IMG/VR virus record: IMGVR_UViG_3300030376_003877
Span: 19,486 to 83,485 of that record
Length of the DNA stretch: 64,000 nucleotides
Direction: 5' to 3' (one strand)
DNA from: a virus
Taxonomy: Duplodnaviria; Caudoviricetes
Made by a program: the position numbers and the translations under genes. Of this stretch, positions 54,989 through 64,000 are shown piece by piece; the first letter of the stretch is position 1, and the number at the start of each line of letters is the position of its first letter. Under the pieces are notes generated by a model. It did not search any database and had not been told where the DNA came from. It worked only from the letters and a program-made list of their open reading frames with translations.

Positions 54989-55055
54989 GGTACGCTACGC
55001 TCCGCGTTTCGCCATCATAAATCCGCCATAACACTGTCATATTCACAACACTGTA

Positions 55056-55085
55056 AGTATAGCACATGTGCCCCCTATGTGTAAA
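55056..55085 (-). promoter_or_regulatory. sigma70-like promoter
   Basis: TTTACA-N18-TATACT on the minus strand. Confidence 0.6.
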
Positions 55086-55116
55086 ACAAAGAGGGCACTG
55101 TAAAACTCACATAGTA

Positions 55117-55263
55117 TCAGAAATCAATGGCGTTAAGTGTTCCCTCTGATGCGTCTGAGTTAGCGATAGATTGTGCCTCATCGGCAATCACATCGAGGAT
55201 ACTCAGAAGTTCTGAACCAGTGTTACCCTGAGACAGCATACCGAGAAATAGTTCGCGAGTCAT
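55117..55263 (-). CDS. small hypothetical protein (48 aa), not in track
   Basis: Manual translation MTRELFLGMLSQGNTGSELLSILDVIADEAQSIANSDASEGTLNAIDF*. Confidence 0.65.
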   Translation of the reverse strand: MTRELFLGMLSQGNTGSELLSILDVIADEAQSIANSDASEGTLNAIDF

Positions 55264-55354
55264 AATGAAGAAGAAAAATGTGAGTTAGTAAGCAGTTTAA
55301 AGTCATACTTAGGACTGTGTGTTAGTTGTTAGATAGTGTTGATTGTGTCCCTAC

Positions 55355-55383
55355 ACTATGGGGGAAGTTCAGAGGTTACTAAC
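55355..55383 (-). promoter_or_regulatory. early element copy 1 (GTTAGTAACCT-N12-CATAGT)
   Basis: Matches the 29-bp element repeated 8 times in 55.3-62.1 kb. Confidence 0.7.
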
Positions 55384-55421
55384 AATAATGCCCTGTTACT
55401 ATCTCTCAATCTTTCCCTTAT

Positions 55422-55450
55422 ATTATAGCACCTATGTGACTCTGAGTCAA
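55422..55450 (-). promoter_or_regulatory. near-consensus sigma70 promoter (leftward)
   Basis: TTGACT-N17-TATAAT. Confidence 0.8.
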
Positions 55451-55485
55451 GTGCAGTCCTGTGGGGGAAAATGTTGCTGGTGCTG

Positions 55486-55514
55486 TTGACTTTTGAGAGA
55501 AAGTGTGATATAGT
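55486..55514 (+). promoter_or_regulatory. near-consensus sigma70 promoter (rightward, antisense to the gene flow)
   Basis: TTGACT-N17-TATAGT with a TGn extension. Confidence 0.75.
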
Positions 55515-55525
55515 GCAGTCTTAGA

Positions 55526-55651
55526 TAACAATAAGAATGAGGGTTTCTAGAGACTTAAGTGATAGTAAGATCACAGGTTTTAAGGAACTTAAGTAACAAT
55601 AAGAATGAGGGTTTCTAGAGACTTAAGTAATGAATAGGAAGAGGGTTAAGT
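55526..55651. repeat. 34-bp-period tandem repeat (A-B-A plus a partial unit), each unit ending in the palindrome ACTTAAGT
   Basis: 35-bp exact repeat at 55526-55560 and 55594-55628; ACTTAAGT at 55553, 55587, 55621. Confidence 0.9.
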
Positions 55652-55658
55652 AAGGGGT

Positions 55659-55722
55659 TTCTCCACAGATTAAAGCGATTAAACCACATTTAACCCCACC
55701 TTTTCAACAGGGTTGTGGAAAA
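55659..55722. promoter_or_regulatory. cluster of three cyanobacterial-type DnaA-box-like 9-mers
   Basis: TTCTCCACA 55659-55667, TTTTCAACA 55701-55709, TGTGGAAAA 55714-55722 (exact reverse complement of TTTTCCACA). Confidence 0.55.
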
Positions 55723-55812
55723 CAAACAAAACACACATATACATTTAAATTAACATTAATAAACGTTTTTTTAATGAAAACCTGTTATTTATGAGTGTTT
55801 TCGGGGTGTTAC

Positions 55813-56016
55813 TTAGGGATTCAAATAGAACCAAGTCTGTGCATCATACACATCAAGTATCTCATCTTTGATATCATCGAGTTCATAACCTTTGAGGTTT
55901 TCAACAATACTCTCCACAGCAATAGTAATCAGATCATTCATATCTAACCCGTCAACAATCATCTCAGCATAGCGTTTCTTAAGACCTTCAAGATTGGTTG
56001 TTTCAGTGTTAGTCAT
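55813..56016 (-). CDS. hypothetical early protein
   Basis: 67-aa ORF, YAEMIVDGLDM; coupled to its upstream neighbour. Confidence 0.7.
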   Translation of the reverse strand: MTNTETTNLEGLKKRYAEMIVDGLDMNDLITIAVESIVENLKGYELDDIKDEILDVYDAQTWFYLNP

Positions 56017-56159
56017 TCGATTACATTTGATGGTGGATTAAGTAGTCTTTCAAGTGCTTCATTCCTTTCATTGATTGTTTCTGTAAGATTACTATCTAAC
56101 AGATCAATCATTAGATTAGCACCTAGTATAATGAAGATAGCAAGGAAGATAATTCTCAT
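56013..56159 (-). CDS. small predicted membrane protein (48 aa), not in track
   Basis: MRIIFLAIFIILGANLMIDLLDSNLTETINERNEALERLLNPPSNVIE*; ATGA overlaps with both neighbours. Confidence 0.7.
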   Translation of the reverse strand: MRIIFLAIFIILGANLMIDLLDSNLTETINERNEALERLLNPPSNVIE

Positions 56160-56503
56160 GAGAAGACATAACCATTAGTGAATGTTACGTTCTTATATAC
56201 TTTCTCTCCATTGATTGCACCTACAAAAAGTCTTACATACCACTGAAAATCTTTCTGAAATACACCTTCTCCTCTCTCACAAAACTCATCACAAAGTGCA
56301 TTGAGTCTGGACTTTGTTGTATTAGACTGATAACCACCATCAAAGATTGTCATGGTATCATCAGTTACTTCTGCAATCTTGTTACCATGAAGACGGACGA
56401 TTGAGGTGCTTGTTTCTTCATTGAAGTGAACTGTTGTGTTTGCATTAGACCAGTTTTGATTTGACTGGATTGCATTGCACATTTGGGATTCGATTTTTCT
56501 CAT
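56156..56503 (-). CDS. conserved phage early hypothetical protein
   Basis: VRLHGNKIA, TTKSRLNAL, QKDFQWY. Confidence 0.8.
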   Translation of the reverse strand: MRKIESQMCNAIQSNQNWSNANTTVHFNEETSTSIVRLHGNKIAEVTDDTMTIFDGGYQSNTTKSRLNALCDEFCERGEGVFQKDFQWYVRLFVGAINGEKVYKNVTFTNGYVFS

Positions 56504-56525
56504 GGTTGGTTGGAGTGGTGTCTAT

Positions 56526-56554
56526 ACTATAGAGGATCTTTAGAGGTTACTAAC
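56526..56554 (-). promoter_or_regulatory. early element copy 2
   Basis: GTTAGTAACCTCTAAAGATCCTCTATAGT. Confidence 0.8.
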
Positions 56555-56701
56555 ATTAACAGGTACAATACGATAGTTGTTGCGTTTAATTTTATTAGTA
56601 TAATACTCCAAACGTTCATATGCCGTGTTGCCATCTGATGTAGAGTTAATAACATCTATCCAATCACCTTTTTTTTCTTCTTGTACTTGAAGTTTGAACA
56701 T
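56540..56701 (-). CDS. small hypothetical protein (53 aa), not in track
   Basis: MFKLQVQEEKKGDWIDVINSTSDGNTAYERLEYYTNKIKRNNYRIVPVNVSNL*; ends inside element copy 2. Confidence 0.55.
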   Translation of the reverse strand: MFKLQVQEEKKGDWIDVINSTSDGNTAYERLEYYTNKIKRNNYRIVPVNVSNL

Positions 56702-56719
56702 GATGTTAGTTAGTGAGTG

Positions 56720-56920
56720 TTATTCGGGGCGAAGTGTAACTTTATAAATCTCAAAGTTTGGATATTGCTCCTTACATCTAGCATATGCTTTAGCAGGAGT
56801 TTCTATCATATAAGAGAGGATATCGTGCATCTCTTTTTTGGTATCGTAACCGTAGCAATTCCAGATTGTCATATGAAAATAGGAGTGGAAGTGATTTCTT
56901 TGATAGTGTCCCAACCACAA
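56720..56920 (-). CDS. hypothetical early protein
   Basis: ORF track; the true start is probably internal (MTIWNCYG). Confidence 0.5.
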   Translation of the reverse strand: MWLGHYQRNHFHSYFHMTIWNCYGYDTKKEMHDILSYMIETPAKAYARCKEQYPNFEIYKVTLRPE

Positions 56921-57045
56921 TATTCGTGGAAGATCTTATCATTCAGTTTGTGAGCATTTAGAGGTTTGATATTACTCTTGCGATCAAATCGAGTGACTTG
57001 ACCATCTCTATACTCTATGCGAATGTTGTATAACATCAAACTAAC
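56869..57045 (-). CDS. hypothetical early protein
   Basis: MLYNIRIEYRDG... internal start within track ORF 56869-57066. Confidence 0.5.
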   Translation of the reverse strand, partial: VSLMLYNIRIEYRDGQVTRFDRKSNIKPLNAHKLNDKIFHEYCGWDTIKEITSTPIFI

Positions 57046-57317
57046 TCCTGTTGATACTGCATCCATTGCTCTTCTACGACTTCATCTACACTCTCTTGAA
57101 TCACCTGATAGATGTAATCAATGTTTCCTACATCATCAAAGATTCTTTCTGCTAGTTCAGGATCTTCTACTGTGTTATCATAATCAAACTCACCATCTTT
57201 ATCCTTCAAGTGACAATCATTTTTGGTGTAAATCCAGGCAGCACAGTGTGCGTCTTCACCTTGATTTTCGATGAGTTGATTAACTCGCTGTTGCAGTTGT
57301 TTGAGAGTGTAGTTCAT
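57036..57317 (-). CDS. hypothetical early protein (CAAW family)
   Basis: TLKQLQQRVNQLI...CAAWIYT; similar to 60333-60596. Confidence 0.7.
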   Translation of the reverse strand: MNYTLKQLQQRVNQLIENQGEDAHCAAWIYTKNDCHLKDKDGEFDYDNTVEDPELAERIFDDVGNIDYIYQVIQESVDEVVEEQWMQYQQELV

Positions 57318-57356
57318 TTCAGAAGTGTGAAGTTTGTCGGACCATCATAACATTTT

Positions 57357-57701
57357 TTAACGAATATAAAGGAATGAACCGTAAGGATCTACGACCTCAG
57401 GGGTATTAACTAAGGACTCAAGAAAGAATCGAATACCTTTTGCAGGTGCTTTATGTGATGCTGGTTTGTAACACGCACCAGACTCTTTGTCGATGAACAT
57501 GAACACACCATTGTTTGAAAAACTGTTATCAGCATAAACCTTGAATTGATTCACCTTGATATATTTTTTACCTACACTATATTCTAACTTATTGTATGTA
57601 CTATGTCCAGATTCAGTTGTATTAACTTTCCATTGATTGTTAACAACTTCAAGTAAACATTCGGTTTGGAATTCAGTTTTGGATTGAGTGATTAATGTCA
57701 T
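57357..57701 (-). CDS. conserved cyanophage early hypothetical protein
   Basis: GKKYIKV...FIDKESG..YKPASHKAPAKGIRF. Confidence 0.8.
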   Translation of the reverse strand: MTLITQSKTEFQTECLLEVVNNQWKVNTTESGHSTYNKLEYSVGKKYIKVNQFKVYADNSFSNNGVFMFIDKESGACYKPASHKAPAKGIRFFLESLVNTPEVVDPYGSFLYIR

Positions 57702-57730
57702 GAGAGTAAAGTTTGGATTGAGTGTTTGAA

Positions 57731-57919
57731 TCAGAAAGGGTTAGACCATGACTCATACTTTTTCATGGTGATGTAACCTTCCTTACAAAGTTCATCAGTG
57801 AAGCAACTCCATGCCTCTGCTTTTGCGATCTTATCTGTTGCTGTACTGGTGCCCATTGTTGATGCTTTCCAGTTGTATCGGAACTGATCTAGTGCTTGTG
57901 CTTTGGTGATGGTTCTCAT
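57731..57919 (-). CDS. conserved cyanophage early hypothetical protein
   Basis: TKAQAL.QFRYNW...AW..FTDELCKEGYIT...W.NPF. Confidence 0.75.
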   Translation of the reverse strand: MRTITKAQALDQFRYNWKASTMGTSTATDKIAKAEAWSCFTDELCKEGYITMKKYESWSNPF

Positions 57920-57938
57920 GATTGGTTGAAGTGCTTAC

Positions 57939-57967
57939 ACTATAGAGGATCTTTAGAGGTTACTAAC
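57939..57967 (-). promoter_or_regulatory. early element copy 3
   Basis: Part of a 40-bp exact repeat with copy 5. Confidence 0.8.
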
Positions 57968-58154
57968 AATAATGCTTTCTCTTGATTCTTTCTATTTGCT
58001 GTATAATACTCTTATAAGAACAACGATCAGATGGTGTCTTTGATGTAACTATCGTTTCGTTAAGTTCTGGATTAAAATATATCTTATGTGTCTTTTGTCG
58101 TATTAAATGATAACCTTCGGATTGTAAATGTTTCGTGATTTGTAACTTCTTCAT
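57963..58154 (-). CDS. HicA-like (dsRBD-fold) putative mRNA interferase
   Basis: 63-aa basic; L..EGY.LIRQKTHKIY.NP....TIV...TP.D...SII.QI pattern with the conserved His. Confidence 0.55.
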   Translation of the reverse strand: MKKLQITKHLQSEGYHLIRQKTHKIYFNPELNETIVTSKTPSDRCSYKSIIQQIERIKRKHYC

Positions 58155-58381
58155 GCCTTATAATACTCCCCGATTGATTTACTTATTACAATCAGTTGTT
58201 CATGAACTTCCTCAATAAGGACTTGAATATCATTCTCCTCACCTAACATTGACATATGATCAACTTCACTCCAATCTTCTACATTAATACTTCCATCATT
58301 ATATTGTGGAGTATAATATAATGTGCCCTCACTATCAATCGAATAGGCACAACCATGATCATCGCAAGTTAATACAATCAT
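58151..58381 (-). CDS. hypothetical early protein
   Basis: Start reassigned to MIVLTCDDHGCAYSID. Confidence 0.6.
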   Translation of the reverse strand: MIVLTCDDHGCAYSIDSEGTLYYTPQYNDGSINVEDWSEVDHMSMLGEENDIQVLIEEVHEQLIVISKSIGEYYKA

Positions 58382-58385
58382 CTCA

Positions 58386-58568
58386 TTAACCTCCAAACAT
58401 TTGATCGAATAAGGACTGCCCTGATCGTTCATCAAGTTTCATCCTTTCATTCTCTCGCAAACAAACAAGGAAGTTAATCTGTGCTTGAATATCCTCAACT
58501 TCATTGTTCAGTTTCTCTTTTCTGAAGTTTAACTCCATGATTGATTTGTTGATTTCAACTGTAGTCAT
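58386..58568 (-). CDS. hypothetical coiled-coil early protein
   Basis: 60-aa ORF ending SLFDQMFGG. Confidence 0.65.
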   Translation of the reverse strand: MTTVEINKSIMELNFRKEKLNNEVEDIQAQINFLVCLRENERMKLDERSGQSLFDQMFGG

Positions 58569-58609
58569 AGTTTTACGGATTGTGAGGTTGTTGAGTTGTT
58601 CAGTAAGAT

Positions 58610-58822
58610 TCAGTTTGCGGCATCCATAAACACATCATAGAAACAATCAAATGCAGCAGGATCATGACAGAATGATTTGATTCCTGATTGGTCACATAAC
58701 CAATCATATGCCATATCAATGTCGGCACCTGTCTCCAATACAAAGGATTGTAACCCTTCAAGAGCATTTACGAAAGCAGAGTCGTTGAGAAGCATTTTTC
58801 TGTTGGTTGTAGTGGTGTTCAT
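58610..58822 (-). CDS. hypothetical early protein
   Basis: ORF track; the start may be the second Met (MLLND, 58795). Confidence 0.65.
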   Translation of the reverse strand: MNTTTTNRKMLLNDSAFVNALEGLQSFVLETGADIDMAYDWLCDQSGIKSFCHDPAAFDCFYDVFMDAAN

Positions 58823-58851
58823 ACTATAGGGGAACTTTAGAGGTTACTAAC
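58823..58851 (-). promoter_or_regulatory. early element copy 4
   Basis: GTTAGTAACCTCTAAAGTTCCCCTATAGT. Confidence 0.8.
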
Positions 58852-58855
58852 AATA

Positions 58856-59128
58856 TCAACCCACACATGCCATTGGAACATATTCTGAACGAGGCATCTT
58901 GTCGGTGTGGTAGTCAGTAACTGTTGCACCGCTAGCAATACGTTCTGCCCACTCATTACGTGCCATGAGTGCTGTCACATTGCTGTAGGATGTGAAACCG
59001 TTATCAAGAAATGTCACACGCTTGTTAAAACGACGAACCGTAACTTTCACGCCTTTGATTTCACATGACTCAGCAATGAATGCCTCAGGAAAGAAATCGA
59101 CGATACAGACAGAGTTTGAGAGTTGCAT
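58856..59128 (-). CDS. conserved cyanophage early hypothetical protein
   Basis: VDFFPEAFIA...RRFNKRVTF. Confidence 0.7.
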   Translation of the reverse strand: MQLSNSVCIVDFFPEAFIAESCEIKGVKVTVRRFNKRVTFLDNGFTSYSNVTALMARNEWAERIASGATVTDYHTDKMPRSEYVPMACVG

Positions 59129-59148
59129 ATGGTTTGAGAAGTGCTTAC

Positions 59149-59177
59149 ACTATAGAGGATCTTTAGAGGTTACTAAC
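59149..59177 (-). promoter_or_regulatory. early element copy 5
   Basis: Identical to copy 3. Confidence 0.8.
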
Positions 59178-59181
59178 TTTA

Positions 59182-60069
59182 TTACCTATTGAACTTGCCC
59201 TCTGTGAAGTTTACATAACTGAAGACAGTACGGTTCACTAACTTGATAGAACCTTCCTCACTCCAGTATACAAAACCCTCTCCTACAGTTTGTGTACCAT
59301 CAGGAAGAAATGTATCAAAGTCAGAGTATACAATCATACTATCAATCACGTCCTCTTTGAGTTCAATCACCCACTGATATAAGTTTGTAAGATGTGGACA
59401 ACGTAAGATAGTTGTGAGAACTCCATCATCTAACTCAACACCAGATTTGATCAACTGATTGATTGCTTGCTTCGCACGATTTGCTTGCTTAGGTGATAGA
59501 AACTTTACTGTGTCTGTGTTAATGATAGGCGGTTCAATCTGCGATGCAATACGATCAACAATTGGCATCACAAACTTGACATGTGAAGTATCATCGAAGT
59601 TTGTACGAATCGGAAGCGGTGCAGCATCACATAGTTCACCATCAATGTAATACTTTGTATGTGGTGCGATAACAAGTTTCTGATAAATCTTCTCTCCGAA
59701 GATATATGTTAGCGTGTTATTTGAAAATACTTCTGTTCTACCAAACCCAAGAAAATCACCCTGATATACACCATCAACGCGAGGCATATATTTCAGCATA
59801 AGATATAATATATCGGCAACATCATCTTGATGTCCAAAGTGTGTAAAGATGTCCTCTGTTGTATAACAAAGTCGAATCTTTTTCTTGTTGAATGCTGCTT
59901 TGGTGCAAACAAAAAACTTACCATTAGCAGGATTAGTTCCCCATACAACAGCAGGAGCACCATCCATCTTCAAACTAATATGATAAGCATTGCTATAAAG
60001 TGCATCAAAGATAGAAAGATCACCAGTCAAAATAGTGTCTTCTGCGTGTTCTAGGTGAGTGTTAGGCAT
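59182..60069 (-). CDS. ATP-dependent ligase-fold nucleotidyltransferase-like protein (DUF6267-like)
   Basis: SLKMDGAP (KxDG motif I), YQGDF, EGFV (motif IV), IKLVNR (motif V). Confidence 0.7.
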   Translation of the reverse strand: MPNTHLEHAEDTILTGDLSIFDALYSNAYHISLKMDGAPAVVWGTNPANGKFFVCTKAAFNKKKIRLCYTTEDIFTHFGHQDDVADILYLMLKYMPRVDGVYQGDFLGFGRTEVFSNNTLTYIFGEKIYQKLVIAPHTKYYIDGELCDAAPLPIRTNFDDTSHVKFVMPIVDRIASQIEPPIINTDTVKFLSPKQANRAKQAINQLIKSGVELDDGVLTTILRCPHLTNLYQWVIELKEDVIDSMIVYSDFDTFLPDGTQTVGEGFVYWSEEGSIKLVNRTVFSYVNFTEGKFNR

Positions 60070-60098
60070 ACTATAGAGGAAGTTTAGAGGTTACTAAT
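60070..60098 (-). promoter_or_regulatory. early element copy 6
   Basis: ATTAGTAACCTCTAAACTTCCTCTATAGT directly followed by ATG. Confidence 0.75.
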
Positions 60099-60108
60099 AA
60101 TAATTAAA

Positions 60109-60294
60109 TCACATTCCGTTCATATACTCATGAAGTTCAGCATAATACTGTTCTTCAGTCTCAAATGTGCGACCATAAATCACACATGGAAAAGTTTTCT
60201 TTTGAAACATTGTTGACGCAACTTGTACGTCCTGTTTATCATAACCCATTTCAATCAGGGTGTTCACGTAAGGGTTGTTTGTAGTGTTATTCAT
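60109..60294 (-). CDS. hypothetical early protein
   Basis: NPYVNTLIEMGYD...GRTFETEEQY. Confidence 0.7.
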   Translation of the reverse strand: MNNTTNNPYVNTLIEMGYDKQDVQVASTMFQKKTFPCVIYGRTFETEEQYYAELHEYMNGM

Positions 60295-60323
60295 ACTATA
60301 GGGGAACTTTAGAGGTTACTAAC
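60295..60323 (-). promoter_or_regulatory. early element copy 7
   Basis: Identical to copy 4. Confidence 0.8.
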
Positions 60324-60332
60324 AATAATACC

Positions 60333-60596
60333 TTAGAATCCTCTCGTTGATAGTTCATTATCAACAACTGTTAAGATTCTATCAACAATGTATTCATGAT
60401 CACTAGAGTTAATCTCTGTTAGGACCATCTTTGCTTCATTAGGAGCAAGTATTACCTCTTTTTGACTGTTATCATCCTCAGTCAATAAATCATCATTCGT
60501 TATCACCCATGCAGCACAAGGTCCAGTATCACCGTGCTTACGGATTAGTGCCTTTACATGATTATCAAGTTCACGTAGTGTTCTGCACTTTTTCAT
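60333..60596 (-). CDS. hypothetical early protein (CAAW family)
   Basis: TLRELDNHVKALI...CAAWVIT. Confidence 0.65.
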   Translation of the reverse strand: MKKCRTLRELDNHVKALIRKHGDTGPCAAWVITNDDLLTEDDNSQKEVILAPNEAKMVLTEINSSDHEYIVDRILTVVDNELSTRGF

Positions 60597-60817
60597 TTCT
60601 TTCTCCGTTTCTTGTGTTTATCTATAAAGTTTATTGCTGATTGTCTGTTTCTACACACCTTAAGTATGTTTGCTTGATGAACAACAGCGAGTTTAGTTGT
60701 GCTTCCTGCTATTGGAACAGCAGCATACATCATAGGATCATCATACTTACCGACGATGAATCCTTCCTCATAAGGTTTAGCATTAAGCAGACTTGTTCTG
60801 GTATATGTTATCTTCAT
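60593..60817 (-). CDS. hypothetical early protein
   Basis: 74-aa basic ORF coupled by ATGA overlaps. Confidence 0.65.
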   Translation of the reverse strand: MKITYTRTSLLNAKPYEEGFIVGKYDDPMMYAAVPIAGSTTKLAVVHQANILKVCRNRQSAINFIDKHKKRRKK

Positions 60818-61995
60818 CTACGCACCACACTATCAAGAACTTCACCCTTTTCAAAAACGATGTCTACAACCCTCTGCAATGCTTTCTCGGTGGATATACC
60901 CACATTGCTGTAAACAGGCACACAGAGCATTCCAAAGGTCTTAGAATCGCTTCCACAACGTATCACACGACCCACAGTCTGAGTCATCTCAATCACATCC
61001 ATATTGCGAAGGAAAATAACTGCTTCCAACTCACTAACGTTAATACCTTCAGACAGAATAGAGCGATGAAGTACAACAAACTTCTTGTTAGTATCTTTGC
61101 CCCAAGCATTAAGAATCTCGAAGAATTTCTCGCGAGAGACTTTCTTACCGTCAACAATCGCACCAGTCTTGGATGTGATATAGAGGTAAGAGTATCCACG
61201 CTCTTTAAGGTCATCAGCAAAATCTGTCTGAAACAGATTGATGAGTTGTCTGGTAGTCTTGACACAAACAAGAATCTTTTTGATACTGATTTGATCAATA
61301 GTTTCTATCACATTGTTGCTTTCAATGTGTGGAGTCAGACTTTTTTTATCGTGCTTACCCATCTGAATCACTTTGACTTTAGGCGGCAAGATAAACCCAC
61401 CCTGAACAAGATTAGGTGCAGAAACTTTAGCAATGATGTCCCCATAGATCTCTCTATCGTTCATTCCTGGTTTCTTGATAGTTACCGAAGTCTTGCGTGT
61501 TGCTGTGAAATAGTAGCAACGATCAGCACGACGAGAGAAATACTTTACAGACTCATGAAAGTTACGTTGAACACTATTATGTGCTTCATCAAAGTAAATC
61601 GTATCAACATCAATGTTTGCGTCTACAATACGATGCAAAGAGTGATATGTGGTGAAGATGATAACATGCTCACGCACTGTCTGACACATATCAACAAACA
61701 GTTTGATGCGATTAGTCTTTGTAGTTCTGAAATGCTTAGTCTCTCCACTATGAACATGCAGCACGTTAGCATTAGTTACTTGCTCAAGAAAATCATTGGA
61801 GAGTTGCTCAACCAACAAAATGCGAGGACACACAACAACAATGGTGCGAGGACTAGAGACTTCAAATCTCTTTACCGCATCCATGATTGCAACCAATGTC
61901 TTACCGCCACCGGTAGGAAAGATACATTGACCAATAGAGTTATTTTGTAGTGCGTTGAGTGCTTCTTGCTGATGAGGGCGAAGACTTACGATCAT
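60814..61995 (-). CDS. SF2 DEAH helicase (ResIII/DEAD-like, no evident nuclease domain), copy A
   Basis: RPHQ Q-motif, PTGGGKT, DEAH, TAT, SEGIN, QTVGRVIR. Confidence 0.9.
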   Translation of the reverse strand: MIVSLRPHQQEALNALQNNSIGQCIFPTGGGKTLVAIMDAVKRFEVSSPRTIVVVCPRILLVEQLSNDFLEQVTNANVLHVHSGETKHFRTTKTNRIKLFVDMCQTVREHVIIFTTYHSLHRIVDANIDVDTIYFDEAHNSVQRNFHESVKYFSRRADRCYYFTATRKTSVTIKKPGMNDREIYGDIIAKVSAPNLVQGGFILPPKVKVIQMGKHDKKSLTPHIESNNVIETIDQISIKKILVCVKTTRQLINLFQTDFADDLKERGYSYLYITSKTGAIVDGKKVSREKFFEILNAWGKDTNKKFVVLHRSILSEGINVSELEAVIFLRNMDVIEMTQTVGRVIRCGSDSKTFGMLCVPVYSNVGISTEKALQRVVDIVFEKGEVLDSVVRR

Positions 61996-62010
61996 TAAGT
62001 TCGTTGCTGT

Positions 62011-62039
62011 ATTATAAGGGAGTTTTAAAGGTTACTAAC
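62011..62039 (-). promoter_or_regulatory. early element copy 8 (with TATAAT)
   Basis: GTTAGTAACCTTTAAAACTCCCTTATAAT, 15 nt before the helicase ATG. Confidence 0.8.
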
Positions 62040-62041
62040 AA

Positions 62042-62893
62042 TTATATGAAATGATTCTTGGTCTTGTATAACAATATCTCTCTTGCTTTCTTTGCTTCAT
62101 ATCCTGCTTCTGTTTTCTTTCTACGTCCCGCAGTGTATGTTATATCAAAGTAATGGACATTCATTGACCTTGATTGATTATTAAACCAGTCATCATCAGC
62201 ACGGTTAGCAACAAAAACTAAATTTTGCATATCGGCAAAGTCAAGAAGGTCTGATAGTGCATCATCACCAAATCCATTGCCATAATCAGCAAAACTATCA
62301 CGATAGGGAGGATCAAAGAAGAAAAATCCATTCGGATCATTATTCACTGAATCTTTCCAATCTCCTGTCTTGATAGTTACATTTTGAAGTGCATTGTGCC
62401 ACCAGTTCAATACACCACGATCATAAACTTTATCCTTCTGGTTCAACAATCCAGCAGGAGTTCCATACCTTCCGTTGGTATTTTTGTTCAGTTGGTAGAT
62501 ACCATTGAACCCAGTCTTCATAAGGAAATATAATGTTGCTGCCTCAAATGTCTTGTTCCATTCTTTATACTCCCAACCGTGAAGATGTCTGATGTCAAAG
62601 TAAAACTTCTTACGATCATCTTTGCTCAGTGGTAGATACTGAGATTCAAGACTATCCAGACGTTGTTGAAACTCTGTCAGGTTAGTCTTGATTGCGTTGT
62701 AGATATTCACGACATCGGAGTTGATGTCATTGATCACCACATTCTTTGGTTGGTAGGTGTTCATCACATAGACAAACATAGCACCACCACCAAAGAATGG
62801 TTCGTAGTAAGTTTCAAAGGAAGATGGCATAAAAGGTGCATAATGCTTCAGCACCTTTGTCTTACCACCTGCCCAAATAAACAGTGGTTTCAT
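62042..62893 (-). CDS. Dam-family (alpha/D12 class) N6-adenine DNA methyltransferase, probably not GATC-specific
   Basis: WAGGK, YEPFFGGG (motif I), INDIN, FDPPY (motif IV); ATGA overlap with the upstream nuclease gene. Confidence 0.92.
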   Translation of the reverse strand: MKPLFIWAGGKTKVLKHYAPFMPSSFETYYEPFFGGGAMFVYVMNTYQPKNVVINDINSDVVNIYNAIKTNLTEFQQRLDSLESQYLPLSKDDRKKFYFDIRHLHGWEYKEWNKTFEAATLYFLMKTGFNGIYQLNKNTNGRYGTPAGLLNQKDKVYDRGVLNWWHNALQNVTIKTGDWKDSVNNDPNGFFFFDPPYRDSFADYGNGFGDDALSDLLDFADMQNLVFVANRADDDWFNNQSRSMNVHYFDITYTAGRRKKTEAGYEAKKAREILLYKTKNHFI

Positions 62894-63435
62894 TCAAACA
62901 CAGTCAGAGATTCAACTCTCTCAGTGATAACTTTAATCATCATAGCACTAAGAAACTCCTTTGTAAAGCAATCAGTGCTCATAAATGCACTGTTGCCACC
63001 AGGATTGTACTGGTCAAATCCTTCAAGGTGAGCAATGTTCAGTGCCTTACCTATCACACCACCAGAATATGCTCCCTCTCCAGTGCAGAAAGTTACATAA
63101 GAAACATCTGGATTGATAGCACGACAGACAAAGTTATTCTTGAACCAGCGTTCAATAGCATTGCCTCTATTCTGCTGTTTCTTACCCTCAAAGACGGCAA
63201 TCAGCACACCATTGTAGAACCAAGCGCCACCATCTGGTTCACAAGCACCAACATTACCAGGAATCTGGTCCTTTGTAAGTTTCTTTTGAATGGTAAGTTG
63301 AGGATACCTTGCTTGCAACCGGGTGAAAATCTCATCCTTAATGTGCTTACATTGTTCATCAAGTTTGCGTGCTCTGGCATCAGTGGCAACAGTGCCCTTT
63401 TGAATACCACCATTGAATCTTTTTGCGGTTTTCAT
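62890..63435 (-). CDS. EcoRI/MunI-family type II restriction endonuclease
   Basis: PDGG...EGKKQ (PD-(D/E)xK) followed by RGNAIERWFKN and YVTF.TG, matching EcoRI PDGG...EAKHQ...GNAIERSHKN...YVLF.EG. Confidence 0.8.
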   Translation of the reverse strand: MKTAKRFNGGIQKGTVATDARARKLDEQCKHIKDEIFTRLQARYPQLTIQKKLTKDQIPGNVGACEPDGGAWFYNGVLIAVFEGKKQQNRGNAIERWFKNNFVCRAINPDVSYVTFCTGEGAYSGGVIGKALNIAHLEGFDQYNPGGNSAFMSTDCFTKEFLSAMMIKVITERVESLTVFE

Positions 63436-63437
63436 GA

Positions 63438-63620
63438 TCAGTAAGAATAGGTGGAGAGATTGCGAGCAGGGACATGATAACCATTCTTAGGGTTGTTCAC
63501 ATCAAAGACCCATACTAATTCATCATCGGATGCTTTGTAAACATCCATACAAAACATTGGGACCAGTTTGACCATGAGAGCACCCCAGTGGTACTCGGTT
63601 TCAAAATCGAAGGTTGTCAT
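63438..63620 (-). CDS. small hypothetical protein, first gene of the REase-MTase operon
   Basis: 60-aa ORF ending 2 nt before the REase ATG; promoter upstream. Confidence 0.65.
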   Translation of the reverse strand: MTTFDFETEYHWGALMVKLVPMFCMDVYKASDDELVWVFDVNNPKNGYHVPARNLSTYSY

Positions 63621-63648
63621 GGGTTGATTCGGTTCCTTTGACTCTTTA

Positions 63649-63706
63649 ATAATACACGGAAACCACCCCCTGTGGGGGAATGGTGGACACTTTGACCAAC
63701 TGGCAC
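63649..63706 (-). promoter_or_regulatory. early promoter of a second class: GTGCCAGTT-N4-AAAGTGTCCAC dyad, CCCCC-ACA-GGGG hairpin, TATTAT -10
   Basis: Minus strand GTGCCAGTTGGTCAAAGTGTCCACCATTCCCCCACAGGGGGTGGTTTCCGTGTATTAT. Confidence 0.7.
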
Positions 63707-63707
63707 A

Positions 63708-64000
63708 CTACCGGCGGATCTCACTGATTGCTGGCATACCCTGGTTGAATACAACATCAACAACTGCTTGCACTTTCTTGGCGGTGCTGATACCAACTCG
63801 GTCATAGGTTGGAATACAAACAAGACCAAACGTCTTCTCAGTGCTACCCAAACGAATCACACGACCAATCGACTGACTGATACCAATGTAGTCCATGTTA
63901 CGCATGAAGATGACTGCCTCAAGTCCACTCACGTTGATACCCTCAGACAGAATAGAGTGGTGAAGAACAACAAACTTTTTGGTCTTGTCCTTGCCCCAAG
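63708..64000 (-). CDS. SF2 helicase copy B, C-terminal fragment (gene starts beyond the window)
   Basis: Open to the window edge: WGKDKTKKFVVLHHSILSEGINVSGLEAVIFMRNMD...QSIGRVIR..., clearly homologous to copy A. Confidence 0.85.
   Translation of the reverse strand, partial: WGKDKTKKFVVLHHSILSEGINVSGLEAVIFMRNMDYIGISQSIGRVIRLGSTEKTFGLVCIPTYDRVGISTAKKVQAVVDVVFNQGMPAISEIRR

What the first reader, a model, noticed from the sequence alone, without database searches (positions are those of the whole stretch)
62042..63620. Complete type II restriction-modification operon in a lytic cyanomyovirus early region
An EcoRI-family endonuclease with intact PD...ExK and GNAIER motifs overlaps (ATGA) a Dam-family m6A MTase. 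Both lie behind an early promoter, with the nuclease transcribed first. Orphan MTases are common in cyanophages, but a coupled cognate nuclease points to an offensive system. Methylated phage DNA would survive while unmethylated host chromosome (nucleotide and phosphate scavenging) or co-infecting phage DNA is cut. The 60-aa first ORF could be a regulator or inhibitor.
Basis: partly seen in the sequence, partly recalled or inferred. Interest (0 to 1): 0.85.

Follow-up and report, generated by a model that had tools for sequence, protein, structure and literature searches.

The report
Phage AATT restriction-modification gene pair
An uncultured T4-like marine cyanophage carries a stripped-down EcoRI-type DNA cutter fused in an operon to a re-tuned Dam-type methylase. 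The pair most likely cuts and protects the 4-letter word AATT, and phages that carry it have purged that word from their genomes.

Summary
On the minus strand a 181-aa ORF (63435..62890) overlaps by ATGA a 283-aa D12-class adenine methylase (62893..62042).

- **Nuclease.** No Pfam or PDB hit on the single sequence. A 60-relative profile hits only EcoRI (E 8e-11), aligning PDGG, ExK and GNAIER. The AF2 model matches EcoRI alone (VIA Z 14.7; Foldseek E 5e-6).
- **Methylase.** It is not a GATC Dam: the EcoDam G-reading residues K9, R124 and Y138 are I, Q and L. Q is found in all 60 linked methylases.
- **Linkage.** The two genes stay linked or co-occur down to 38% nuclease identity.
- **AATT avoidance.** Carrier phages avoid AATT (O/E 0.16-0.69; S-RIM2 0.23). 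Relatives without the pair do not (0.89-0.99). All ten NAATTN contexts are depleted.

Hence this is a phage-borne type IIP R-M reading AATT.

Not supported: an early promoter in front of the cassette, and the 60-aa ORF as a component, since near-isogenic phages lacking the pair keep it. The "offensive" role is plausible but untested.

The family is virtually virus-only. This scan already reached the same reading on other genomes (e1-5779292, e1-5779302, e1-5345546).

The parts
62890..63435 (-). 181-aa minimal EcoRI-fold PD-(D/E)xK endonuclease (phrog_2400), predicted type IIP enzyme reading AATT
   Evidence: ORF. Profile A2 hits only EcoRI chains, E 8e-11. Foldseek top five hits are all EcoRI, E 5e-6. 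VIA-align Z 14.7, rmsd 2.8 A, 154 residues, with the next hit at Z 9.2. dN/dS 0.11-0.21.
63226..63237 (-). P67-D68-G69-G70, aligned to EcoRI PDGG (catalytic D91)
   Evidence: Sequence; alignment to EcoRI; P67, D68, G69 and G70 nearly invariant in 60 relatives.
63181..63189 (-). E83-G84-K85, aligned to EcoRI E111-A-K113 (catalytic)
63148..63165 (-). G91-N-A-I-E-R96, aligned to EcoRI G140-R145, the segment that reads the inner AATT. Only 5 residues separate K85 from G91, against 26 in EcoRI, so the inner arm is missing.
   Evidence: G91, N92 and R96 are invariant across 60 relatives.
62890..62893 (-). ATGA overlap: nuclease stop TGA and MTase start ATG (translational coupling)
   Evidence: The same 4-nt overlap is seen in some S-RIM2 isolates and in the Aquirufa-MAG phage contig.
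62042..62893 (-). 283-aa D12-class (Dam-like, alpha-type) N6-adenine DNA methyltransferase with non-GATC reading residues. Predicted to methylate AATT.
   Evidence: PF02086 E 2.4e-32. PADLOC MTase_II E 6e-46. Nearest solved relatives are DpnM and EcoDam. dN/dS 0.10-0.17.
62486..62509 (-). DNA-reading hairpin F129-N-G-I-Y-Q134-L-N. Q134 replaces EcoDam R124, which reads the G of the 4th base pair.
   Evidence: Alignments. Q in 60 of 60 nuclease-linked MTases. Role of R124 from PMC4417163.
62876..62878 (-). I6 in place of EcoDam K9 (first-base-pair recognition)
62303..62314 (-). Catalytic DPPY motif (194-197) of the MTase
63438..63620 (-). 60-aa ORF (phrog_12800, unknown function). An upstream neighbour, not a component of the R-M module.
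   Evidence: Kept in L086 and L087, which lack the pair. Accompanies the pair in 8 of 80 loci.
62011..62039 (-). Promoter-like element GTTAGTAAC-N14-TATAAT heading the downstream helicase. It marks the downstream edge of the cassette: homology to cassette-less relatives resumes at 62042.

Best explanation
The 181-aa and 283-aa genes form a phage-borne type IIP restriction-modification module whose site is the 4-bp palindrome AATT. The nuclease is a minimal EcoRI-fold PD-ExK enzyme. It keeps EcoRI's catalytic triad and the GNAIER segment that reads the inner AATT, and it lacks the arms that help EcoRI read the outer G:C pairs. It presumably acts as a homodimer. The methylase is a Dam-like enzyme in which the residues that read the two G:C pairs of GATC have been replaced, so it is inferred to methylate AATT (probably the second A). 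Phage DNA arrives methylated and is re-methylated after replication. It has also lost about 30-85% of its AATT sites. Unmethylated DNA in the infected cell is cut: the host chromosome, and co-infecting phages without the methylase. Shown here: homology, motifs, linkage, co-occurrence, purifying selection, carrier-specific AATT avoidance, and cassette mobility. Inferred: cleavage at AATT, protection by methylation, dimer state, timing of expression, and which target (host or rival phage) gives the benefit.
For: Nuclease is EcoRI-like: profile hit only to EcoRI, E 8e-11, aligning PDGG/ExK/GNAIER; Foldseek top five all EcoRI; VIA Z 14.7 against 9.2 for the next hit. Catalytic and reading residues are conserved to about 30% identity. 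Linkage: 62 of 80 viral loci have the homologous MTase directly downstream on the same strand, down to 38% nuclease and 47% MTase identity. In a complete 190-kb genome with a solitary nuclease, an MTase with the same hairpin lies 18 kb away. Among 50,697 phage records this MTase subtype (E<=1e-20) occurs in 64, all Synechococcus phages; the 60 records listed for each search are S-RIM2 and S-BM1 isolates that also appear in the nuclease hit list, which totals 65. MTase is not GATC-type: K9->I/M, R124->Q (60 of 60), R137-Y138->LL; roles of those residues from PMC4417163. AATT O/E is 0.42 in 44 carrier loci against 0.81 in 76 homologous loci without the pair (MWU p 5e-16), and no other palindrome separates the two groups as strongly, although AGCT, GGCC and CCGG also differ. 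Whole records: 0.58, 0.69, 0.16, 0.54 with the nuclease against 0.95, 0.91, 0.95 without. Isolates: S-RIM2 0.23 against Syn9 0.89 and S-PM2 0.99. All ten NAATTN contexts are depleted alike. dN/dS is 0.1-0.2 for both genes. MluCI (AATT) is cited as mosaic-related to EcoRI and MunI (PMC4081073).
Against: There is no biochemical or methylome evidence. The window protein itself misses Pfam EcoRI. AATT avoidance could partly reflect host enzymes. Many other palindromes (AGCT, GGCC, GTAC, TGCA) are also avoided in these phages, though equally in carriers and non-carriers. About 18 of 80 loci show no adjacent MTase; for four of these, no D12 MTase was found in 29-63% complete records. S-CREM2 shows only mild AATT avoidance (0.74), and its MTase has a different hairpin with K kept at the K9 position. 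No promoter was found in front of the cassette. Loci are phylogenetically related, so the p-value overstates independence.
Confidence: 0.72

Rival explanations
1. The molecules are the same, but the pair is essentially a selfish mobile R-M cassette. It persists and spreads in a hypervariable island because, in mixed infections, genomes that are not AATT-methylated are cut and repaired from the carrier (marker exclusion or gene conversion). There is no role in host DNA breakdown and no net benefit to the phage.
For: The cassette occupies a swap-site. Relatives with 92.7% DNA identity carry different genes (a PF05869 Dam, DUF6551, and 224-aa and 83-aa unknowns) between the same 60-aa ORF and helicase. 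None of the 76 other helicase loci in the sample carries the pair near the helicase. Identity inside the cassette is mosaic: in L010 the nuclease is 75% and the MTase 90% identical. Carriers pay a compositional cost in the AATT purge. Phages known to degrade host DNA, such as Syn9, lack the gene.
Against: The pair has persisted across deep divergence under purifying selection. It is present in all S-RIM2 isolates sampled over years. That fits a benefit as well as selfishness, and no test here separates the two.
Confidence: 0.3
2. The methylase is mainly an anti-restriction device against a host AATT-specific enzyme. The AATT purge comes from that host enzyme. The neighbouring nuclease has another job (repair, recombination or packaging) and is not restrained by the methylation.
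For: Orphan methylases are common in phages (PMC4081073). Several other palindromes are avoided in both carriers and non-carriers, presumably because of host R-M.
Against: The nuclease independently carries EcoRI's AATT-reading GNAIER motif. AATT avoidance tracks the nuclease even where the MTase is unlinked or not found. Among isolates, the listed records carrying this MTase subtype also appear in the nuclease hit list. S-RIM2 and S-PM2 were both isolated on WH7803 yet differ, at 0.23 against 0.99.
Confidence: 0.08
3. The nuclease is a catalytically dead or non-cutting DNA binder (for example a site-specific regulator) and the pair is not an R-M system.
For: The protein is 96 residues shorter than EcoRI and lacks the inner arm. 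The AF2 model is of only moderate confidence, pLDDT 72.6.
Against: D68, E83 and K85 are nearly invariant across the family. dN/dS is 0.11-0.21. Genome-wide site avoidance is the signature of a cutting enzyme. MunI, a related active enzyme, is also only about 200 aa (chain length).
Confidence: 0.04

Closest known systems
EcoRI restriction endonuclease (type IIP, G^AATTC; Pfam PF02963; PDB 1eri, 1ckq, 2oxv)
   Same: Same fold (VIA Z 14.7, rmsd 2.8 A over 154 residues; Foldseek E 5e-6). Same catalytic PD...ExK. Identical GNAIER segment, followed by x-x-K-N. Same gene order, nuclease before methylase (for EcoRI, from my own knowledge).
   Different: 181 aa against 277 aa, and the inner arm between K113 and G140 is reduced from 26 to 5 residues. 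Below Pfam detection. The inferred site is 4-bp AATT rather than GAATTC. The partner methylase is of the Dam-like D12 class, not the M.EcoRI type. The family is virus-restricted.
MluCI / Tsp509I / TspEI-type ^AATT enzymes, and MunI (C^AATTG; PDB 1d02)
   Same: The predicted site is the same as MluCI's. MluCI, MunI and EcoRI are described as mosaic relatives (PMC4081073). MunI is similarly small and gives a weaker fold match, Z 6.8.
   Different: No MluCI or Tsp509I sequence was available, so kinship is untested. Those enzymes are bacterial chromosomal, whereas this family gave 1 hit in 185,579 species genomes.
Dam-family GATC methyltransferases (EcoDam 2g1p, DpnM 2dpm, T4 Dam 1yfj; Pfam PF02086)
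   Same: Same domain, SAM motif, DPPY, and a beta-hairpin with the N-G-[IL] and P positions kept.
   Different: The residues that read the two G:C pairs are replaced: K9->I, R124->Q, Y138->L. The phage genome is not especially GATC-poor compared with relatives.
Chlorella-virus type II R-M systems (e.g. CviAII)
   Same: A lytic virus encodes its own type II nuclease and methylase (PMC4081073). They are used against host DNA (my own knowledge). This is the nearest functional precedent for the 'offensive' reading.
   Different: Those are eukaryotic algal giant viruses with unrelated enzymes. Some of their nucleases are virion-packaged, whereas S-CREM2 gp11 is not flagged as a virion protein while its neighbours are.

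Membership tests
Type II (IIP) restriction-modification system | Separate endonuclease with a PD-(D/E)xK (or other) catalytic site | tested here: met
   P67-D68...E83-x-K85 aligned to EcoRI D91/E111/K113 and conserved in 60 relatives.
Type II (IIP) restriction-modification system | Separate DNA methyltransferase with SAM-binding and catalytic motifs | tested here: met
   PF02086 E 2.4e-32; FxGxG 33-37; DPPY 194-197.
Type II (IIP) restriction-modification system | The two genes are linked or co-inherited | tested here: met
   62 of 80 loci are adjacent. An unlinked copy is present in a complete genome. The MTase subtype is confined to 64 phage records, and the 60 listed also appear among the 65 nuclease-bearing records.
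Type II (IIP) restriction-modification system | Both enzymes act on the same palindromic site | tested here: inconclusive
   Indirect only. The GNAIER motif, loss of the G-reading residues in the MTase and carrier-specific AATT avoidance in all NAATTN contexts all point to AATT. There is no assay.
Type II (IIP) restriction-modification system | Cleavage is blocked by the cognate methylation | not testable with these tools
   Needs enzyme assays or a virion methylome.
EcoRI family (Pfam PF02963) | Match to the family HMM above its threshold | tested here: not met
   No hit for the window protein even at E<=10. Only 2 of 25 and 1 of 60 relatives give weak hits (E 0.011 and 2e-4).
EcoRI family (Pfam PF02963) | EcoRI fold with catalytic D/E/K and the GNAIER recognition segment | tested here: met
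EcoRI family (Pfam PF02963) | Full-length architecture (about 277 aa, with inner and outer arms) | tested here: not met
   181 aa. K85 to G91 is 5 residues against 26 in EcoRI.
EcoRI family (Pfam PF02963) | GAATTC specificity | tested here: inconclusive
   All ten NAATTN contexts are depleted in carriers, which argues for a 4-bp site. GAATTC is low in non-carriers too.
Dam (GATC) methyltransferases within D12 class PF02086 | D12-class domain | tested here: met
Dam (GATC) methyltransferases within D12 class PF02086 | GATC-reading residues (EcoDam K9, R124, Y138) | tested here: not met
   I6, Q134, L150 in the window. Q in 60 of 60 linked MTases. Residue roles from PMC4417163.

The most novel reading that the evidence does not exclude
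A virus-restricted lineage of miniature EcoRI-type 4-base cutters, paired with re-specified Dam-like methylases, is used by lytic marine cyanophages as a weapon. It shreds the unmethylated host chromosome (cyanomyoviruses lack T4's denA, denB and ndd) and excludes rival phages in co-infection. It has also reshaped the carriers' genome composition through a genome-wide AATT purge. This would be the bacteriophage counterpart of the chlorovirus R-M systems.
Probability: 0.4. Interest if true: 0.8.

Novelty: new variant of a known kind. Interest (0 to 1): 0.66.

Why it matters
Type II restriction genes are said to occur only rarely on bacteriophages (PMC4081073). Here a whole family, with hundreds of 90%-identity clusters in marine metagenomes, appears to live almost only in viruses.

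It leaves a measurable mark: carrier phages have lost about 30-85% of their AATT sites, while close relatives have not. That gives a sequence-only way to spot active phage-borne nucleases and to read their specificity.

It also offers a candidate mechanism for host DNA breakdown or for phage-phage exclusion in cyanomyoviruses, which lack the T4 host-DNA nucleases (PMC2984593).

It shows a natural example of Dam re-specification by swapping the G-reading residues.

It points to a very small candidate AATT cutter that could be useful as a reagent.

Cultured carriers (S-RIM2, S-BM1 on Synechococcus WH7803) and non-carriers on the same host (S-PM2) or closely related (Syn9) make all of this testable.

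Tried and rejected
- **Single-sequence searches.** Pfam, PADLOC and PDB phmmer searches of the nuclease gave nothing.
- **Narrow profile.** The 25-sequence profile A1 also gave no EcoRI hit. Only the broader profile A2 did.
- **The search for related loci on genome contigs with A2** failed for lack of a conserved stretch. It was replaced by a DNA pattern for GNAIERWxKN.
- **Complex prediction for a homodimer** was not available, so the dimer state is inferred from EcoRI only.
- **Promoter upstream of the 60-aa ORF.** The consensus scan and the window's own repeated element both found none. The 87-nt intergenic RNA fold is unremarkable, z -0.2.
- **A 6-bp site (GAATTC, CAATTG or RAATTY)** was rejected because all NAATTN contexts are depleted alike.
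- **The 60-aa ORF as controller or inhibitor** was rejected.
- **The flanking helicase(s) as part of the system** were rejected: 76 related helicase loci lack the pair.
- **Bacterial origin or a prophage reservoir.** There was one hit in 185,579 species genomes, and it sits on a phage-like 2.9-kb MAG contig.
- **Literature searches** found no description of this pair. There is only a GenBank label on S-CREM2 gp11, which its paper does not discuss.
Full report
**What is there.** The window is the last 64 kb of an 83.5-kb IMG/VR viral contig (CheckV 43% complete, GC 36.6%). Its genes resemble those of T4-like cyanophages, but no isolate is close at the DNA level; the structural region gives only a 70-bp match in gp7 of P-SSM2.

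At the finding's coordinates, three minus-strand ORFs follow one another:
- 60 aa (63620..63438)
- 181 aa (63435..62890)
- 283 aa (62893..62042)

The last two overlap as ATGA at 62890-62893. An SF2 helicase lies downstream (61995..60814). The C-terminal end of a paralogous helicase lies upstream (63998..63708).

**The nuclease.** Alone, the 181-aa protein matches no Pfam, PADLOC or PDB sequence. It matches only phrog_2400, of unknown function. It has 363 relatives at 90%-cluster level in metagenomes and 270 representative clusters at 50% identity.
- A profile of 25 close relatives still found nothing in the PDB.
- A profile of 60 diverse relatives found EcoRI and nothing else (E 8e-11). It aligns P67-D68-G-G with EcoRI PDGG (D91), E83-G-K85 with E111-A-K113, and G91-NAIER-96 with G140-R145.
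- These residues are invariant or nearly so down to about 30% identity.
- An AlphaFold2 model (pLDDT 72.6) matches EcoRI chains in Foldseek ranks 1-5 (E 5e-6 to 3e-4; next hit E 0.2).
- In an all-against-48,161-chain VIA-align search, EcoRI stands alone at Z 14.7 (rmsd 2.8 A, 154 residues). The next hit scores 9.2 and MunI scores 6.8.

EcoRI has 26 residues (the inner arm) between K113 and G140. The phage protein has 5. So it is a remote, miniature EcoRI homologue that falls below Pfam PF02963 detection.

**The methylase.** It is a D12-class N6-adenine MTase (PF02086 E 2.4e-32; FxGxG 33-37, DPPY 194-197). Its nearest solved relatives are DpnM and EcoDam.

In the printed alignments, EcoDam K9 corresponds to I6, R124 to Q134, and R137-Y138 to L149-L150. 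L122 and P134 correspond to I132 and P146. According to PMC4417163:
- R124 reads the guanine of the fourth base pair of GATC, and R124A loses that discrimination.
- K9 and Y138 serve first-base-pair recognition.
- L122 and P134 contact the inner pair.

So the contacts to the inner A:T pairs are kept and those to both outer G:C pairs are replaced. All 60 nuclease-linked MTases that I extracted have Q at the R124 position, and 58 have I, M or V at the K9 position. This is not a GATC Dam.

**Are they a pair?**
- In 62 of 80 viral loci holding a nuclease homologue, a homologue of this MTase lies directly downstream on the same strand. This holds even at 38-50% nuclease and 47-50% MTase identity.
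- In a complete 190-kb genome with a solitary nuclease, an MTase with the same hairpin (FNGIWQINKNTNGRYGTPAGLLNQ) lies about 18 kb away.
- One distant locus pairs the nuclease with an MT-A70-type (DPPW) methylase instead.
- Among 50,697 phage records the nuclease is in 65: S-RIM2 isolates, S-BM1, S-CREM2 and 5 records not listed.
- The MTase subtype (E<=1e-20) is in 64, all Synechococcus phages. The 60 listed records (S-RIM2, S-BM1) also appear in the nuclease hit list.
- Both genes are under purifying selection: dN/dS 0.11-0.21 and 0.10-0.17.

**The site.** I followed a first-reader lead (e1-5851567) and counted AATT.

In the window:
- At 55-64 kb there are 12 AATT against 47.7 (Markov) or 80 (composition) expected.
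- At 1-55 kb there are 293 against 485.
- TTAA, ATAT and TATA are near expectation.

In comparisons with relatives:
- In 44 cyanophage-like loci with the pair, AATT O/E is 0.42 (median 0.39). In 76 homologous helicase loci of related phages without the pair it is 0.81 (median 0.80). Mann-Whitney p is 5e-16.
- No other palindrome separates the groups as strongly. AGCT, GGCC and CCGG also differ, though less.
- Whole records with the nuclease give 0.58 (own contig), 0.69, 0.16 and 0.54. Records without give 0.95, 0.91 and 0.95, uniformly along the genomes.
- In the homologous 50-kb structural regions of isolates, S-RIM2 gives 53 of 226 (0.23), Syn9 0.89 and S-PM2 0.99. S-CREM2 gives 0.74.
- All ten NAATTN contexts are depleted to a similar degree, which argues for a 4-bp site rather than GAATTC or CAATTG.

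The loci are related, so the p-value overstates independence. However, the effect recurs in distant lineages and in sister-like pairs (S-RIM2 against Syn9).

Three lines of evidence converge on AATT: the AATT-reading motif in the nuclease, the altered outer-pair readers in the MTase, and carrier-specific AATT avoidance. PMC4081073 mentions MluCI (an AATT cutter) as a mosaic relative of EcoRI and MunI. I could not test that kinship.

**Cassette and context.** Two relatives (L086, L087) share 92.7% DNA identity from window 62042 downstream. They also keep the 60-aa ORF (91%). Between these two points they carry four other genes in place of the pair:
- a 224-aa unknown
- an 83-aa ORF
- a DUF6551 protein
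- a PF05869 Dam

So the pair is a swappable cassette in a variable island, and the 60-aa ORF is not part of it. That ORF accompanies the pair in only 8 of 80 loci. None of the other 76 helicase loci in the 80-locus sample carries the pair near the helicase.

The window's repeated promoter-like element (six copies) occurs at 62011-62039, after the MTase. There is none upstream of the 60-aa ORF, and the sigma-70 scan finds nothing there either. The claimed early promoter is therefore not confirmed. Early expression is suggested only by the neighbourhood.

The strict DNA pattern for GNAIERWxKN matches 70 of the 80 viral loci. It matches only one contig among 185,579 species genomes. That contig is a 2.9-kb phage-like piece in an Aquirufa MAG, again with the nuclease overlapping a Q-type MTase. 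The family is essentially viral.

**Function.** I consider the molecular reading (type IIP R-M, AATT) about 70-75% likely.

The biological role is inferred, not shown. A 4-base cutter made in a lytic infection would cut any unmethylated DNA present: the host chromosome, and co-infecting phages lacking the methylase. Cyanomyoviruses lack T4's denA, denB and ndd (PMC2984593), so a role in host DNA breakdown is attractive. But most cyanomyoviruses lack this pair too, which favours competition between phages, or selfish persistence of the cassette, at least as much.

The AATT purge shows that the nuclease imposes a cost on its own genome, as known for R-M-bearing genomes.

**Prior art.** PMC4081073 states that type II REase genes rarely occur on bacteriophages and that chlorella viruses encode them. 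S-CREM2 gp11 is labelled 'restriction endonuclease EcoRI' in GenBank, but its paper does not discuss it. I found no paper describing the pair, its site or the AATT purge.

Within this scan, the same family was already followed up on other genomes with the same conclusions (e1-5779292, e1-5779302, e1-5345546). Everything stated here was re-derived here.

**Verdict.** This is a real, functional-looking, phage-borne AATT restriction-modification module. It is a new variant of a known kind. The promoter and the 60-aa 'regulator' do not, and the offensive role remains a hypothesis.

Noticed in passing
L086:6933-9467 (also L087): Relatives sharing 92.7% DNA identity with the window carry a different set of genes at the same site, between the 60-aa ORF and the helicase. 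The set is a 224-aa ORF with no family, an 83-aa ORF, a 355-aa DUF6551 protein and a 173-aa PF05869 phage Dam. The 224-aa ORF could be another nuclease, so this may be an alternative modification or R-M cassette.
   Followed up: partly
L002:4324-5367 (S-RIM2 KX349237); also L009, L018, L022-L025, L027, L032, L048, L049: A 347-aa DUF6551 (ParB-like) gene sits between the nuclease and the MTase in most S-RIM2 isolates and in at least 9 metagenomic loci. This breaks the ATGA coupling. A 32%-identical homologue sits directly upstream of the unrelated PF05869 Dam in L086/L087. It may be an optional mobile insert or an accessory that travels with methylases.
   Followed up: partly
window 63708-64000 and 60814-61995 (- strand): Two paralogous SF2 helicase genes flank the cassette. 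Their C-terminal ~96 aa are clearly alike. In other phages the single helicase lies either upstream or downstream of the pair.
   Followed up: partly
window 56526, 57939, 58823, 59149, 60295, 62011 (- strand): Six copies of a 29-bp promoter-like element, GTTAGTAAC-N14-TATAGT/TATAAT, head small-gene groups (0.35 expected by chance). The -35 position is a GTTAGTAAC pseudo-palindrome rather than TTGACA.
   Followed up: partly
whole contig G000; window 55000-64000: AGCT (O/E 0.24; 0 sites in 55-64 kb against 17 expected) and GGCC (0.32) are strongly avoided. This is so in carriers and non-carriers of the pair alike, and presumably reflects host restriction enzymes.
   Followed up: no
G001 (IMG/VR 189,882-bp complete genome; loci L060, L163, L175-L184): Extreme AATT purge (O/E 0.16 genome-wide) and no CCGG site at all. 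The nuclease is solitary here, with the cognate-type MTase about 18 kb away and a second, different D12 MTase elsewhere.
   Followed up: partly
L078:3962-5004: A distant nuclease homologue (164 aa) overlaps a 183-aa DPPW (MT-A70-like) methylase instead of the D12 type. This is partner swapping within the family.
   Followed up: no
L004:4480-5370 (S-CREM2 gp8): The S-CREM2 methylase lies two genes from its nuclease. It keeps K at the EcoDam-K9 position and has a different hairpin after the conserved Q. The genome shows only mild AATT avoidance (0.74). Its specificity may differ, or the system may be a recent arrival.
   Followed up: partly
L010, L006 versus window 62042-63435: Identity within the cassette is mosaic. 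In L010 the nuclease is 75% and the MTase 90% identical to the window's; in L006 the figures are 84% and 88%. This suggests recombination inside the pair.
   Followed up: no
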